DNA from: Octopus vulgaris
Lineage: Eukaryota
Reading direction: 5' to 3'
DNA: 64,000 nucleotides
Assembly (NCBI GenBank): GCA_951406725.2
Contig: OX597837.1
Location: forward strand, 13,640,001 to 13,704,000
Position numbers: made by a program. Position 1 is the stretch's first letter, and each line of letters begins with the position of its first letter. Below, one piece after another: positions 1 through 5,062 of this stretch.

Positions 1-3000
1 AGGTCTGTTGTACGAAATCATAAGCCTGAAATACGAAGAGAATACAAAAGCCTGAAATATGGAATCATAAACCTGAAACACAAGCAGAAAGAATTACGTA
101 AGTTTAATAGTTGCATTGAAGTATGAAAATGAGTAAATTCGATCCAAGAACAGATAGACATGCTGGGTCTTTTCGGTTTAAACGGCAGTTTTTTCTAGCG
201 GCGTCATATGAAATTGTCACCCATAATTATAACCCTAGTATCGATCTATTGCATTTCAATCTGTTTTAGGGTTTAGGGTAAGTTAGGGTTAGGGGTGGGG
301 GGAAGGGTATCTTTTTTTCTTCAGAAATGTAAATAAACCCAATCTGTTTCTTAAACGAGGGACATTTTCATACGGCACAGAATGTTTTTTTACCTCAATA
401 GACGTCAGTGATTGATTGAAATTGCAAAAATTGAAGAAAAAAAAACAACAAATATCTTACAAACTATAGAATTTTCTCAATAAAGCCAAAAGAAAAAGAT
501 GTTTTATAAACACATTCTACCAGTATACGAAGTTTAAAATTTTTTTAGTTATCTAGAAATTACGTTAAAAACTGCTGTTCAAACCGAAAAGATCCGATAT
601 GCTTAACCCTTTGCCTGTTTTGTGTCTCACATCTGATACACGGGACATATTTCTTTGGCATCTGTACATCGTATATGACAGACGTTTTCAATTTTTTCAA
701 TTATTAGAGTAACTTGGGACTTATGAAAAGAAAGCTTTTTAATACTCAGAGTATATGAAACAAGAGCTAACTAAACATTTTCAAACAAGCACAGACTTTT
801 AGAATAAATTTAAGAGAATGCTTTGGAGGACGACGACCCATAAGTGTAGTGGGTGCTTTTTACGTGCCAGGGGAGGCTGGCAATGGCCACGATCGGTTGG
901 TGGTTTTTATGTGCCACCGACACGGAAGCTATTCAAGGTGGTGCTGGCATTGGCCACATACAGATGGTGCTTTTTAGGTGCCACTGGGTCAGGGTAGGCT
1001 GGCGTGAAATTAACATGCACTCCACAGACATGCCTATCCTTAACATAGTTCTGAAGGAGATTCAGTGTGACACAGAGTGTGACAAAGCCAGCCCTTTGAT
1101 TACGGGTATGGTTCATTTTTGTCAGCTGAGTGACGTGACAAGTCACACAAAAATAAACAAACAATAAAAAAAAAAACCAACTAACAAGTGAAAAAGCAAA
1201 CAAACAAACAATAATGATATAAACATTTACCTCTCGATATTTCTGAGATACTGGGTTGTCCCTAGGCCATCGAGTTTTACCATATTCTTGTATATTTTGT
1301 TGGGGGCCTACATTTATAACATTTTTCTCTTCATCTCTCCCTGTAAAATATTATTAAAACAAATAATTGAAAAAAAAAAGAAACAAAAGCAAAGCAAGAA
1401 AGCATCAGTTTCTAATATTTGAGAATTTATAAAATCCTGAAGACGAATTTCAATTCTTACAAGAGGGCGCCAACTACCAAAGACTAGAAATTTTAAGTTC
1501 TTTGTAATGTGGTCCGAGTCTTTAGTTTGAGTTCCTCCTGCTTCTAACGGAACATTGGTGTGGTGTCCGCTGCTGCCACTTTTGCATCAGTCCAGGTCAA
1601 CTGCAGGTCCCTTAAGTCCTCATGGAGAGTACTGCACCCATTTCTGGGTGGTCTACCTCTCCCTCGTTTGATCCCAGCCAGTGTCCAGGTCAATGCAGTG
1701 TGTTCCTATAACCGTATTATTAAATGTCTAATGAATCCCAATCTTCACTTCTTGACAATGTCTGATAGGTTGTCTAGCCCTGACCACTGCATGACCTCCT
1801 TATGGGTGATGTAGTCCCTCCACAATGTTCCAAGTTTATAACGAATGCATCGCCTACAAAAGATGTCCAATTTGTTAATGATGCTAGCTGTCCTTTTCCG
1901 TGTCTGGTACACACAGATAGCAGTAGGCACGACAATCGACAAGTAGAGATGACTTTTTAGAGTGCAAGCACCCTGAGAGAAAAGTTGGAAAGAAGAAGTA
2001 TCAGATGTGGTGTACAAGAGAGACGACTGCACTGGTATGGTCATGAGCTGTGTATGGATGAGGACAGCTGTGTGAAGAAGTGTCACACCCCAACAGTGGA
2101 AGGAACCTGTGGATGAGGTAGACCCAGGAAGACGTGGGATAAGGTGGTGAAGCATGACCTTCGAATGTTGAGCCTCACAGAGACAGATCTTTGGAGATAT
2201 GCTGTGACTGAGAGGACCCGGTAACTAAAGAGAGATCACAGCTGTGGCTGATACCAGAGGTGCATGTCCAGTCCATTTAAAAAGTGCTCTTGAATTGCTG
2301 GGTGACACACTGTGCTTGAGAAGATCTGTTGAGTCAAGTGGAATTGTAGTCATGGCTGATGCCGCCTGACTGGCACCCGTGCTGGTGGCATGTAAAAAGC
2401 GCCATCTGAACGTGGTTGATGCCAGTTCTGCCTGACTGGCCTTTTACATGGCAGTGGTACCAGTGGGGGTCACCAAGTAACTTGCAAGACAAAAGATCCC
2501 TCAGCTGAGGAGAGGTACAGTATTGAGAGCAGAAGCTGTGTTGGAGATAAAAGCTTTTATGGATGAGCTGTGTTTAAAAAGACAATATATATATATTGGA
2601 ATTGGACATAAATGTGTGTGTGTGTGTGTGGAATTTGATATATATATATATGAGTGTATGTATATATATATGTATGTATGGGTGTATGTATGTGTGTATG
2701 TATGTATGTTTGTAAGTATGTGTGTATGCATGTGTGTATGCATGTATGTATGTATGTGTGTGTATGTATGCGTGTGTGTATGTATGTATGTGTGTATGCA
2801 TGTATGTATGTGTGCATGTATGTATGCGTGTATGTGGCAGCAGCTAGTGAGAATGTCAGATGCATTTTGGCTTTGTCGATGATGTGTTCACAAAGACAGA
2901 CATGCCCAGACGAGATTTATTGCCTCTGATGTAGGAAATGGTGTAGAATGCATTCACTGATACGCTGAATAAATAATCTGGTGGATGCAACTGAACCAGT

Positions 3001-5062
3001 ATTAAATTAAAACAGCCATTGTGCTTAAACACAGCACACCCAGTAGAGATTTTACCTCAGATGAAACCCACAGCATCTTGCCTGTCAGCAATGTATATAC
3101 ATCATGTATGATACATAGGTAGCTTTTTTGATCTAAAACAACATCAGTTGTGTACACTTGACATTGAACAGAATGTATTTCCTATTAACAATATGCATAC
3201 CACAGATGCATGTAAGCATTTCTTATCTTTCGGTATGACGTCCTGTATGGATGGTTAAAAGACATGTTGGACTTGGCTATGAACGTTGTGGGTTACCATT
3301 GTGAGATTTTCTAGACAGGGCTTGGTTAAATGATATGCGGTTTAACCTACGTGCTGTCACATATTAAAACAAACTCTGAACTGTGTTTGATAAACATTTA
3401 TTTATATATATGTGCTTATCGCAATATTTACATAATTATACAGATGCTAATCAGGGCTATGTTGTGGCCTGTCAGCAGTAAATGAAGTTTAATTATGACA
3501 GATAAGAATGGCTTCATGTGAGAGGTGGGGAAATACTATTCGTAGCTTCGATCAACATCAATGGAAATTGTAGCTGTGATACCAGTGCCGATGGCACGTA
3601 AGAGAACCATCTGAACGTGGCTGTTGCCAGTGCCGCCCCGACTGGCCTCCATGTTGGTGGCATGTAAAATGCACCATCCGATTGTGGCCGTTGCCAGCCT
3701 CATCTGGCCCCGTGCCGGTGGCACGTAAAAAGCACTATCCGATCGTGGCCGTTTGCCAGCCTCGTCTGGCACCTGTGCAGGTGGCACGTAAAAAGCACCC
3801 ACTACACTCAAGGAGGGTTGGCGTTAGGAAGGGTATCCAGCCATAGAAACACTGCCAGATCAGACTGGGCCTAGCGCAGCCTTCTGGCTTCTCAGACCCC
3901 AGTTGAACCGTCCAACCCATGCTAGCATGGAAAACGGACGTTAAACGATAATGATGATGATGATGATAGTCAATGACTCCTTTAACTCAGGGTTGAATAG
4001 CAACCAAGGAACCAGCTTTCTTATGGACTTGTCCGTATCACCTATGTGCACTTCTGATTAAGAACTGACTAGCTGCTTATTTATATGTGGCAAGAGGTAA
4101 TGATATGGTGTTCATGGTACATGCTTGGAGAAGTGCATTGTAGATGAAGAGATTCATTTAAACACAAGTCAAGCAGACCCCCCACCACCACACTACAAAA
4201 CTTCAGGCCTTGTACTAACAGTGGAGAGGCTTATCATTATTATTATTCCACCAAGGTCGACTTTATTTTTCATCCATTCAGGGGTCGATAAATTAAGTAC
4301 CAGTTGCATACTGGGGTTGATGTGATTGACTGGTCCCCTTCCCTGAAATTTCAGGCATTGTGCTTATAATAGAAAGGATTATTATTATTATTATATATGA
4401 AGATGGCAAGCTGGCAGAATCATTACCACATTGGACAAAAGGCTCAACAGCATTTCATATATCTTTATGTTCTGGGTTCAAATTCTGCCCAAGTTGATTC
4501 TTCTTTTCATCCTTTCAGGGTCAATAAATTAAGTACCAGTGAAACACTGAGGTCAATGTAATCGACTAGCCCCTTCCTCTAAAATTTCAGGCATGGTGGT
4601 GCCTATAGTAGAAAGGATTATTATTATTATTACTACTACTACGAAGAAAGCATTTTATGTTAGAATGAAAATGCTATAATTAAAAAAGCAACAATTTTAA
4701 TGGCAAAAATTAATCATTATTAATTATTTTATTGAAACCATGTATTGCTCACTATAATCTAATAACAATTTTAGGGGTGAAGACGGGGTACAGGGACTTT
4801 CTTGGTTCATAAAAAAAAGAATTTGAACATTGTCAAAAAATGATTAGCAGTGTTACACAATGAAAAATGTTAACAAAAATTCGTAAGAACAACAAATAAT
4901 ACATAATTAAATAAATGTGTGTGAGTGTTGTGTGTGTGTACAGGTTGTAGCTATATTTACCTTTTTCTAAATCTTTTCTTCCAGTATCTCCTAAAAGTTG
5001 AAAAAAAAAATTAGATAGAAATTAATTGCTTTTAATGGTGATTTTATGCTAAAGTTTCAGTC

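What the first reader, a model, noticed from the sequence alone, without database searches (positions are those of the whole stretch)
1..4990. Hidden tandem OTULIN paralog, invisible to the ORF track
Seen: exons 1231-1340 and 1-25 duplicate gene-1 exons 28430-28539 and the start of 26294-26446, with identical length, phase and splice signals. Intron sequence beside them is still alignable (for example 1341-1465 versus 28540-28690). Known: OTULIN is the Met1-linked (linear) ubiquitin-specific deubiquitinase opposing LUBAC in NF-kB and cell-death signalling, and vertebrates have one active gene plus inactive OTULINL. Inference: a lineage-specific tandem expansion of linear-ubiquitin editors in an octopus, possibly with more copies to the left.
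Basis: partly seen in the sequence, partly recalled or inferred. Interest (0 to 1): 0.8.

Follow-up and report, generated by a model that had tools for sequence, protein, structure and literature searches.

The report
Annotated short OTULIN paralog in octopus
The left end of this octopus window carries real exons of a second, apparently intact OTULIN-type deubiquitinase gene next to a longer sister gene, but that gene is already in the public Octopus vulgaris annotation and the duplication is old, so this is an ordinary tandem gene pair.

Summary
Minus-strand exons 1340..1231 and 25..1 parallel gene-1 exons 28539..28430 and 26446..26294, with the same length, phase and AG/GT signals. Intron flanks are still alignable.

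The copy is not hidden. Its exon peptides match exactly a public 301-aa Octopus vulgaris protein, "ubiquitin thioesterase otulin-like" (P0001). P0001 is a complete peptidase C101 domain with the Cys/His/Asn triad. Its first coding exon is at 7896..7854.

Gene 1 is a long form: a 1,477-nt exon (41909..40433) precedes its catalytic exons. The public 897-aa model P0121 joins gene-1 exons to copy-2 exons and skips the catalytic-Cys exon.

Argonauta hians has a short-form relative (P0002). It shares 5 derived residues with P0001 where gene 1 keeps the ancestral state, so the duplication probably predates that split. Residues 101-197 are nearly identical between the two octopus copies, which suggests later gene conversion.

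I found two copies and no evidence of more. Function is inferred by homology only. Interest is low to moderate.

The parts
1..25 (-). Copy 2 (P0001 gene): first 25 nt of coding exon 4 (residues A62-T69; the rest, including the catalytic Cys, lies left of the window)
   Evidence: Translation AYDFVQQT is identical to P0001 residues 62-69; acceptor ...tatttcag at 27-26
1231..1340 (-). Copy 2: coding exon 3 (110 nt, G25 partial codon to E61), start of the OTU domain with the Tyr and Trp equivalent to human Y91/W96
   Evidence: 100% identical to P0001 residues 26-61; AG/GT flanks
4961..4990 (-). Copy 2: coding exon 2 (30 nt, phase 1 to phase 1, R15 partial codon to G25 partial codon); its 10 residues are absent from the Argonauta protein P0002
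   Evidence: tblastn of P0001 residues 16-26; splice sites ttttag| and |gtaaat
7854..7896 (-). Copy 2: first coding exon (ATG at 7896..7894, 14 codons + 1 nt); A at -3 and G at +4
   Evidence: MATSSEFEDLCTTP is 100% identical to P0001 residues 1-14; donor |gtatgt
1370..1462 (-). Intron stretch of copy 2 still alignable with gene-1 intron 28591-28688
   Evidence: 73 of 92 columns identical, z 13.7, reached by 0 of 300 shuffles; blastn E 7e-29 for exon plus flanks
86..129 (-). Intron stretch of copy 2 alignable with gene-1 intron 26477-26520
   Evidence: 36 of 44 identical, z 12.8; blastn 82%
40433..41909 (-). Gene 1: large exon (1,477 nt, 492 codons + 1 nt) encoding a Ser/Asp-rich N-terminal extension; it ends in phase 1 and fits exon C
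   Evidence: 100% identical to P0121 residues 180-672; ttttcag| and |gtgagt; no Pfam family
28430..28539 (-). Gene 1: exon C, the paralog of 1231-1340
26294..26446 (-). Gene 1: exon D with the catalytic-Cys motif RGDNYC; absent from the public model P0121
   Evidence: Pfam PF16218 31.6 bits (cut-off 27), profile positions 30-76; splice sites; P0121 lacks it
23591..23713 (-). Gene 1: exon E (41 codons)
   Evidence: 100% identical to P0121 residues 709-749; 40 of 41 identical to P0001
20471..20737 (-). Gene 1: exon F (89 codons)
   Evidence: PF16218 69.1 bits, profile positions 128-209; 78 of 89 identical to P0001; splice sites
19668..19847 (-). Gene 1: last exon G (59 codons + TGA) with EDDRHYN (the catalytic His/Asn and the Asp equivalent to human D336)
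   Evidence: PF16218 67.1 bits, profile positions 210-264
20606..26329 (-). Gene-1 span that encodes residues 101-197 (P0001 numbering), where the two paralogs differ at only 1 residue: the inferred conversion or recombination tract
   Evidence: 1 difference in residues 101-197, where P0001 and the Argonauta protein differ at 19 sites; longest identical run 61, reached by 0 of 20,000 permutations

Best explanation
Window 1-4990 holds coding exons 2 and 3 and the first 25 nt of exon 4 (minus strand) of a 301-aa OTULIN-family (peptidase C101) gene. Its start codon is at 7896, and its remaining exons lie left of the window.

This gene is the downstream, short-form member of a head-to-tail pair. 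The upstream member (gene 1, 41909..19668 and further right) is a long form: a roughly 490-codon Ser/Asp-rich exon precedes the same five catalytic-domain exons. According to public models, a hydrophobic N-terminal helix encoded outside the window precedes that exon.

The pair arose by an old tandem duplication of the catalytic exons with their introns. The duplication is probably older than the Octopus/Argonauta split. The middle of the domain (residues ~101-197) was later homogenised between the copies, most simply by interlocus gene conversion or unequal crossing-over.

Both copies keep the catalytic Cys, His and Asn, the auto-inhibitory Asp, and the Tyr/Trp of the proximal-ubiquitin site. 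Both are therefore predicted to be active cysteine deubiquitinases, and by homology Met1-(linear)-chain specific.

Shown: the exon structure, the family and fold membership, the identity with public models, and the mosaic similarity. Inferred: enzymatic activity, linkage specificity, expression, the conversion mechanism, and membrane anchoring of the long form.
For: Identity with the public model:
- Exon peptides are 100% identical to P0001.
- All splice sites are canonical and the phases are compatible.

Family and fold:
- P0001 scores 207.3 bits on PF16218, cut-off 27.
- It matches human OTULIN chains at E 1.3e-40 and FAM105A at 2.2e-33.
- The AlphaFold model has pLDDT 85.2 and pTM 0.84, with residues 1-29 disordered.
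- That model superposes on OTULIN and FAM105A crystal structures at target-normalised TM 0.89-0.92, rmsd 2.1-2.8 A.
- Gene-1 exons D, F and G each pass the C101 cut-off on their own, in colinear profile positions.
- C84, D290, H293, N295, Y44 and W49 of P0001 are invariant or nearly invariant in 14 sequences. They are present in the gene-1 exon peptides.

Long form:
- P0121 residues 180-672 map at 100% to 41909..40431 and run on into gene-1 exon C.
- An independent 843-aa protein, P0122, has the same N-terminal region (52% identity) plus a complete C101 domain at 271 bits.

Age of the duplication:
- Exon C gives dS ~0.76 and dN/dS ~0.42.
- Intron identity is ~67-80%.
- Polarised sites give 5 for (P0001, Argonauta), 0 for (gene 1, P0001) and 1 for (gene 1, Argonauta).

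Mosaic similarity:
- 49 of 276 residues differ between the copies, but only 1 within residues 101-197.
- The longest identical run was reached by 0 of 20,000 permutations. Fisher test p = 6e-6.
Against: - The catalytic motifs of the left copy are not in the window. They rest on P0001, an automated model from an annotation whose other model here (P0121) is visibly odd.
- No expression data could be consulted.
- With P0122 as the only outgroup, the informative sites split 6:6:2. The dating therefore depends on reading that split as a mosaic.
- dS rests on 22 synonymous sites.
- Copy-2 DNA for exons D-G is outside the window, so conversion is inferred from protein alone.
- The vertebrate HOIP-binding motif is not kept: D-L-C aligns where vertebrates have D-M-Y.
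- The presence of LUBAC in octopus was not tested.
- Gene 1's exon C is only 42% identical to copy 2's and did not match the Pfam C101 model on its own. Exon E, although 98% identical to copy 2's, also did not match on its own.
Confidence: 0.8

Rival explanations
1. The left copy is a dead duplicate: a pseudogene fragment that keeps only a few exon-like pieces.
For: Only 135 nt of domain-coding sequence lie in the window. Exon C alone gives no Pfam hit. No expression data were available.
Against: Four consecutive exons have intact ORFs and canonical splice sites, and there is an ATG in good context. They match a full-length 301-aa model with a complete C101 domain exactly. The Argonauta short form is 232 of 276 identical over the domain and 31 of 36 in exon C. 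That is far above what the ~30% nucleotide divergence between the copies would leave in an unconstrained sequence.
Confidence: 0.04
2. The two 'genes' are one complex transcription unit. Transcripts starting at gene 1 really do splice into the last exons of the left copy, as the public model P0121 shows, so the left copy serves as an alternative 3' cassette.
For: P0121 joins gene-1 exons (the large exon, C and E) to exons F and G, which are identical to those of P0001: residues 750-897 equal P0001 154-301.
Against: Gene 1 has its own in-frame exons D, F and G with good splice sites and a stop codon. P0121 skips the catalytic-Cys exon. The chimeric junction falls inside the stretch where the copies are nearly identical, which is where read or transcript mis-assignment is expected. 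The left copy has its own ATG exon, which is conserved in Argonauta.
Confidence: 0.1
3. One reading: a recent, octopus-specific expansion of linear-ubiquitin editors, with further copies to the left.
For: In exons D-F gene 1 is closer to P0001 (86, 98 and 88%) than P0001 is to the Argonauta protein (80, 88 and 79%). There are 5 sites between residues 68 and 183 that group gene 1 with P0001 against Argonauta + P0122, plus 1 such site in exon C, giving 6 in all. The window ends inside the left copy, so nothing further left could be seen.
Against: Argonauta has the short form with the same first exon. There are 5 polarised sites for (P0001, Argonauta) against 0 for (gene 1, P0001). Exon C is 42% identical between the paralogs but 86% between species. 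dS is ~0.76. Only two O. vulgaris C101 representatives were returned, and they share exons.
Confidence: 0.1
4. The near-identity of residues 101-197 reflects unusually strong purifying selection in Octopus, or fast evolution in Argonauta, rather than gene conversion.
For: The stretch is the helical core of the domain. Only protein data exist for copy 2 there. Boundaries chosen after the fact inflate the p-values.
Against: Of the 5 sites between residues 68 and 183 where gene 1 and P0001 share a state while Argonauta keeps the P0122 state, 3 (143, 163, 183) lie inside residues 101-197; shared derived changes are what conversion predicts. The Argonauta protein differs from P0001 at 19 sites in this stretch (14 inside the 61-residue identical run), so it is not intrinsically invariant.
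Confidence: 0.15

Closest known systems
Human OTULIN (FAM105B), Met1-specific OTU deubiquitinase (PDB 3ZNV, 3ZNZ, 4KSJ, 9LZX)
   Same: The whole catalytic domain aligns at E 1.3e-40. The fold matches at target-normalised TM ~0.9. The following align: Cys129/His339/Asn341, Asp336, and the residues aligning with human Tyr91/Trp96. Numbering comes from the alignment, with an offset checked on C129, H339 and N341 as given in passages of PMC7862380. The roles of Y91 and W96 are recalled. Of the four disease residues named in PMC7862380, Y244, L272 and G281 are conserved and G174 is Ala (my hand reading).
   Different: Identity is 32-35%. The N-terminus is only ~30 disordered residues. The PUB-interacting motif Asp-Met-Tyr-Arg-Ala is not kept: Asp-Leu-Cys-Thr-Thr sits at the aligned place. 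No C-terminal extension with a PDZ-binding motif was seen. Activity and linkage specificity are untested.
Human OTULINL (FAM105A), ER-resident pseudo-deubiquitinase adjacent to OTULIN
   Same: It is also a second family member in a genome. It has a predicted N-terminal membrane-localisation motif (passages of PMC7862380), which resembles the hydrophobic helix in the long-form models P0121 and P0122: Kyte-Doolittle 19-mer means of 2.31 and 2.27. It was the best Foldseek hit, 6DRM, at E 1e-20.
   Different: FAM105A has a disrupted triad, Asp139/His350/His352 (PMC7862380). Both octopus copies keep Cys/His/Asn. The vertebrate pair is described as a vertebrate ohnolog pair (passages of PMC5381560), so the octopus duplication is independent of it.
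Argonauta hians 'ubiquitin thioesterase otulin-like' (P0002, 291 aa)
   Same: Same short architecture and same MATS... first exon. It is 232 of 276 identical to P0001 over the domain exons.
   Different: It lacks the 10 residues of exon 2 (4961-4990). It differs at 19 sites in residues 101-197, where the two O. vulgaris copies are almost identical.
Unnamed long-form protein P0122 (843 aa)
   Same: N-terminal hydrophobic helix, then a long acidic/Ser-rich region 52% identical to the gene-1 large exon, then a complete C101 domain, with the same ...TAD... junction into the domain.
   Different: Its catalytic domain is equally distant from gene 1 (139/264), P0001 (137/262) and P0002 (135/261). It therefore lies outside the octopod pair. 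Its species is unknown to me.

Membership tests
OTULIN family / peptidase C101 (Pfam PF16218) | Match to the C101 profile above the curated cut-off over the whole domain | tested here: met
   P0001 scores 207.3 bits against a cut-off of 27, profile positions 3-264 of 265. Gene-1 exons D, F and G score 31.6, 69.1 and 67.1 bits singly. The 36-aa exon C of either copy gives no C101 match on its own, and neither does gene-1 exon E.
OTULIN family / peptidase C101 (Pfam PF16218) | Catalytic triad Cys129/His339/Asn341 (PMC7862380) | tested here: met
   P0001 C84, H293 and N295 align with them. Gene 1 has RGDNYC in 26294-26446 and DRHYN in 19671-19847. For the left copy these residues are encoded outside the window.
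OTULIN family / peptidase C101 (Pfam PF16218) | Auto-inhibitory Asp336, used in substrate-assisted catalysis (PMC7862380) | tested here: met
   EDDRHYN is invariant in 14 of 14 aligned sequences and present in gene-1 exon G.
OTULIN family / peptidase C101 (Pfam PF16218) | OTULIN-type OTU fold | tested here: met
   The model of P0001 has pLDDT 85.2. Target-normalised TM to OTULIN and FAM105A structures is 0.89-0.92, against 0.66-0.73 to full otubain chains.
OTULIN proper (LUBAC-bound linear-chain editor) | N-terminal PUB-interacting motif Asp54-Met55-Tyr56-Arg57-Ala58, which binds HOIP; Tyr56 is essential (PMC7862380) | tested here: not met
   MAFFT places F-E-D-L-C-T-T of exon 1 under vertebrate E-D-M-Y-R, so Cys sits where the Tyr is. 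Argonauta has E-D-S-Y. The alignment of this short disordered stretch is uncertain.
OTULIN proper (LUBAC-bound linear-chain editor) | Exclusive hydrolysis of Met1-linked polyubiquitin | not testable with these tools
   Needs a diubiquitin panel assay.
OTULIN proper (LUBAC-bound linear-chain editor) | HOIP/LUBAC present in the same genome | not tested
   No permitted query sequence and no cephalopod genome collection were available. Passages of PMC7862380 state that taxa with OTULIN also carry LUBAC genes.
OTULINL / FAM105A-type pseudo-deubiquitinase | Disrupted triad (Asp/His/His in human) | tested here: not met
   Both octopus copies keep Cys, His and Asn.

The most novel reading that the evidence does not exclude
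Octopods split OTULIN into two catalytically intact enzymes. One is a membrane-tethered long form, with a hydrophobic N-terminal helix and a ~490-residue acidic linker that carries conserved short motifs. The other is a soluble short form made by duplicating only the catalytic exons. The core of the two domains is kept in step by gene conversion.

This would be an independent invertebrate parallel to the vertebrate OTULIN/OTULINL pair, but with both members active. It would imply compartment-specific editing of linear ubiquitin in a mollusc.
Probability: 0.3. Interest if true: 0.45.

Novelty: new member of a known kind. Interest (0 to 1): 0.25.

Why it matters
OTULIN is the dedicated eraser of linear ubiquitin chains in vertebrate immune and cell-death signalling. 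Outside chordates it is reported only as present "in a few non-chordates" (passages of PMC7862380).

A conserved octopod pair with different N-termini and intact active sites gives two natural constructs. They could be used to ask whether Met1 specificity and substrate-assisted catalysis predate vertebrates. They could also show whether localisation, rather than loss of activity as in OTULINL, can be the axis of divergence after duplication.

In practical terms, the public long model (P0121) mixes exons of both genes and omits the catalytic exon. Anyone counting or cloning cephalopod deubiquitinases from that annotation would be misled.

Otherwise this is an ordinary old tandem duplicate of a known enzyme family.

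Tried and rejected
- Gene-1 equivalents of copy-2 exons 1 and 2. Peptide scoring along the whole minus strand gave a best non-self score of 26 against 74 for self. Collinear blastn found nothing either. I take the 5' ends to be unrelated.
- P0121 residues 1-179. These are not in the window; the best tblastn E-value was 0.014 and looked spurious. Gene 1 therefore starts right of base 64000, if that part of the model is right.
The 5 and 13 members of the P0001 and P0121 clusters stayed unseen. A correct gene-1 model more than 90% identical to P0121 could be among them, so I do not claim that gene 1's own exons D, F and G are unannotated. I claim only that no representative carries them: 1 of 1 candidate and 3 of 94, all at 88% identity or less. 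The tool itself calls such absence weak evidence.
- Atlas search on the large exon gave a best score of 0.76, below the 0.9 lead level.
- Pfam on 13 other ORFs of the window (4, which included the large exon, and 9) gave nothing above the cut-off.
- Rfam at gathering threshold gave 0 matches and ARAGORN gave 0 tRNA genes.
- Default blastn missed the exon-C pair.
- Literature: OTULIN+octopus gave 1 paper and OTULIN+cephalopod gave 1 paper; neither title concerns cephalopod OTULIN, and I opened neither paper. OTULIN+mollus gave 16 papers, of which I saw the listing of 10. Those are mostly clinical, plus one oyster preprint that names OTULIN once.
- No complex prediction was run, because no binding is claimed.

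Rejected readings:
- Haplotig or false duplication. The copies differ at 31% of exon-C bases and have different 5' exons.
- LINE/RT origin of some intron ORFs. This was my recollection only and Pfam did not support it.

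
Full report
OBSERVATION

The window has no N and reads as AT-rich animal DNA. On the minus strand, 1340..1231 and 28539..28430 are both 110 nt. Both follow TTTTACAG and precede GTAA. Both are read with 2 nt completing a codon, followed by 36 codons.

They share 75 of 108 in-frame bases and 15 of 36 residues. Bases 25..1 read AYDFVQQT, against AYNQVQQT at the start of 26446..26294.

With +1/-1 scoring, 1199-1462 aligns with 28398-28688 at E 7e-29. Intron-only tests gave these results:
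- 1370-1462 versus 28591-28688: 73 of 92 columns identical, z 13.7, reached by 0 of 300 shuffles.
- 86-129 versus 26477-26520: 36 of 44 identical, z 12.8.
- The other flank of exon C: z 1.2, not significant.
- Two unrelated controls: z 4.2 and 0.7.

Default blastn did not report the exon-C pair.

WHAT THE LEFT COPY IS

A search with gene-1's catalytic exon returned one protein, P0001. It is 301 aa, from Octopus vulgaris, and UniRef names it "Ubiquitin thioesterase otulin-like". P0001 contains the left copy's exon peptides exactly.

tblastn and splice-site reading give these coding exons:
- Exon 1: 7896..7854, with the ATG in a good context.
- Exon 2: 4990..4961.
- Exon 3: 1340..1231.
- Exon 4: starts at 25, and the rest lies left of the window.

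The window is therefore O. vulgaris or a near-identical genome, and the "hidden" paralog is a gene already in the public annotation.

P0001 is a complete peptidase C101 domain. It scores 207.3 bits on Pfam against a cut-off of 27. It matches human OTULIN chains at E 1.3e-40 and FAM105A at 2.2e-33.

A model built from a 14-sequence alignment has pLDDT 85.2, with residues 1-29 disordered. It superposes on OTULIN and FAM105A crystal structures at target-normalised TM 0.89-0.92. Against full otubain chains the value is 0.66-0.73.

THE PARTNER GENE

Gene 1's catalytic exons are as follows:

| Exon | Coordinates | Feature |
|---|---|---|
| C | 28539..28430 | paralog of 1340..1231 |
| D | 26446..26294 | RGDNYC |
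| E | 23713..23591 | |
| F | 20737..20471 | |
| G | 19847..19671, then TGA | EDDRHYN |

All have AG/GT flanks and fit each other in phase. They have the same lengths as the P0001 segments, with no indel. Exons D, F and G each pass the C101 cut-off alone, in colinear profile positions.

A search with exon F returned three proteins: P0001, the Argonauta protein P0002, and P0121, an 897-aa O. vulgaris model. P0121 is built as follows:
- Residues 180-672 map at 100% to a single exon, 41909..40433.
- Gene-1 exon C follows, then gene-1 exon E at 100%. Exon D is skipped.
- Residues 750-897 are identical to P0001 residues 154-301, not to gene-1 exons F and G (87% and 85%).
- Residues 1-179 are not in the window.

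P0121 therefore shows that gene 1 is a long form. It also mixes exons of both genes and lacks the catalytic Cys. The chimeric junction lies where the two genes are almost identical (see below). I read it as a probable modelling artefact, with a real read-through transcript as a 0.1 rival.

An all-against-all search with the large exon found 5 proteins. One is P0122, an unnamed 843-aa protein with three parts:
- the same N-terminal hydrophobic helix (Kyte-Doolittle 19-mer mean 2.27, against 2.31 in P0121);
- the same acidic/Ser-rich region, at 52% identity;
- a complete C101 domain at 271 bits.

The long architecture is therefore conserved in at least one other genome. Two more distant hits, P0124 and P0125, carry no C101 domain.

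I did not build or search a joined spliced model of gene 1. All searches and counts were made exon by exon. As a result, no whole-protein search, fold or maximum-likelihood tree exists for gene 1.

EVOLUTION

Amino-acid identity per exon:

| Exon | gene 1 / P0001 | P0001 / Argonauta P0002 |
|---|---|---|
| C | 42% | 86% |
| D | 86% | 80% |
| E | 98% | 88% |
| F | 88% | 79% |
| G | 85% | 92% |
| Total | 227 of 276 | 232 of 276 |

I polarised sites by the majority state of 12 outgroup sequences. This gave 5 sites where P0001 and Argonauta share a derived residue while gene 1 is ancestral (residues 51, 53, 56, 237, 238). It gave 0 sites for gene 1 + P0001 and 1 for gene 1 + Argonauta. Another 22 variable sites with a majority outgroup state were uninformative.

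With P0122 as the only outgroup the split is 6:6:2, and it is spatially ordered. Five of the six sites for P0001 + Argonauta are in exon C. Five of the six for gene 1 + P0001 lie between residues 68 and 183.

P0122's domain is equidistant from all three proteins: 139/264, 137/262 and 135/261.

The two octopus copies differ at 49 of 276 residues, but at only one (residue 136) within residues 101-197. P0001 and Argonauta differ at 19 sites in that stretch. The 61-residue identical run was reached by 0 of 20,000 permutations. A Fisher test for residues 113-197 against the rest gives p = 6e-6, with boundaries chosen after seeing the data.

Exon C gives dS ~0.76 and dN/dS ~0.42, from only 22 synonymous sites.

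My reading is this. The catalytic exons were duplicated in tandem long ago, before the Octopus/Argonauta split and after the split from the P0122 lineage. Alternatively, earlier homogenisation erased older signal. A later conversion or unequal-crossover event then spanned the equivalent of window 26329..20606. The left copy's exons 1 and 2 have no counterpart upstream of gene-1 exon C.

Which architecture is ancestral is open. The short form's first exon aligns loosely with the vertebrate PIM region. This could mean the short N-terminus is the old one and the long form is a fusion.

MECHANISM

Passages of PMC7862380 give the catalytic triad Cys129/His339/Asn341. They also describe Asp336, which proximal-ubiquitin Glu16 displaces, and the PIM Asp54-Ala58, which binds HOIP.

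I took the numbering offset from the alignment, and it reproduces C129, H339 and N341. With that offset, P0001 C84, D290, H293 and N295 are the equivalents, and Y44 and W49 align with Y91 and W96. The roles of Y91 and W96 in binding proximal ubiquitin are my recollection.

Gene 1 carries all of these residues. Both proteins are therefore predicted to be active and, by homology, linear-chain specific. This is inference.

The PIM tyrosine is Cys in P0001, so vertebrate-style docking on HOIP is doubtful.

KNOWN OR NEW

Passages of PMC5381560 say OTULIN arose in Bilateria and that FAM105A is a vertebrate ohnolog. Passages of PMC7862380 say OTULIN occurs in a few non-chordates.

I found nothing in print on cephalopod OTULIN. 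The searches were OTULIN+octopus, OTULIN+cephalopod and OTULIN+mollus. I saw listings only for these, plus one passage of an oyster preprint.

The gene is a new member of a known kind, and its sequence is already public.

LIMITS

No cephalopod genome, read set or adjacent sequence was available. Supplements were closed.

Noticed in passing
window 19668-41909 (gene 1) versus public model P0121: The public 897-aa O. vulgaris model joins gene-1 exons (large exon, C, E) to the last two exons of the neighbouring gene and omits the catalytic-Cys exon 26294-26446. It is probably a mis-joined model across near-identical paralogous exons.
   Followed up: yes
window 7854-7896 (exon 1 of the left copy): The encoded S-E-F-E-D-L-C aligns under the vertebrate HOIP-binding motif E-D-M-Y-R. 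Argonauta has E-D-S-Y at the same place. This may be a remnant PUB-interacting motif that has lost its tyrosine in O. vulgaris. The alignment is of a short disordered stretch and could be chance.
   Followed up: partly
window 40433-41909: The large exon is 15% Ser and 11% Asp. It shares short conserved blocks with P0122, P0124 and P0125, of the kind ...SP.SL.E.NL......SSVLLTPPSE... and ...HG.EDE...L.... No Pfam family matched and there was no Atlas lead. It is an unnamed conserved linker region.
   Followed up: partly
outside the window (P0121 residues 136-154; P0122 residues 6-24): The long-form models carry a strongly hydrophobic 19-mer (Kyte-Doolittle means 2.31 and 2.27). This recalls the predicted membrane-localisation motif of vertebrate FAM105A (PMC7862380).
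   Followed up: partly
window 3585-3968, also 843-987 and 2353-2441: An interspersed repeat with internal 61-63-nt tandem sub-repeats (3637-3821). In one search it matches at least ten other places in the window. Examples are 16768-17101, 26616-26934, 29239-29542, 59951-60245 and 22100-22305, at 70-86% identity and in both orientations. I took it for SINE-like from recall and did not classify it.
   Followed up: no
window 4245-4640 and 5284-5545: Two further dispersed repeat families with many copies in the window. The first matches, for example, 32150-32286, 30554-30691 and 42617-42767. The second matches 23159-23419, 27921-28178 and 56977-57352.
   Followed up: no
window 262-300: A short run of degenerate TTAGGG-like units inside the intron. 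It is too short to mean much.
   Followed up: no
window 2580-2840, 5060-5116, 7228-7640: Long imperfect TG/TATG and TA microsatellites in the introns and upstream of exon 1. They account for most of the long stop-free 'ORFs'.
   Followed up: no
window 7975-7973: An upstream ATG, out of frame with the start codon at 7896, opens a frame that overlaps exon 1. It is relevant only if the 5' UTR reaches that far.
   Followed up: no
window 4961-4990: Exon 2 is 30 nt and phase-symmetric. Skipping it would give ...TTP-R-RDEEK..., which is the arrangement seen in the Argonauta protein. It may be a cassette exon.
   Followed up: partly
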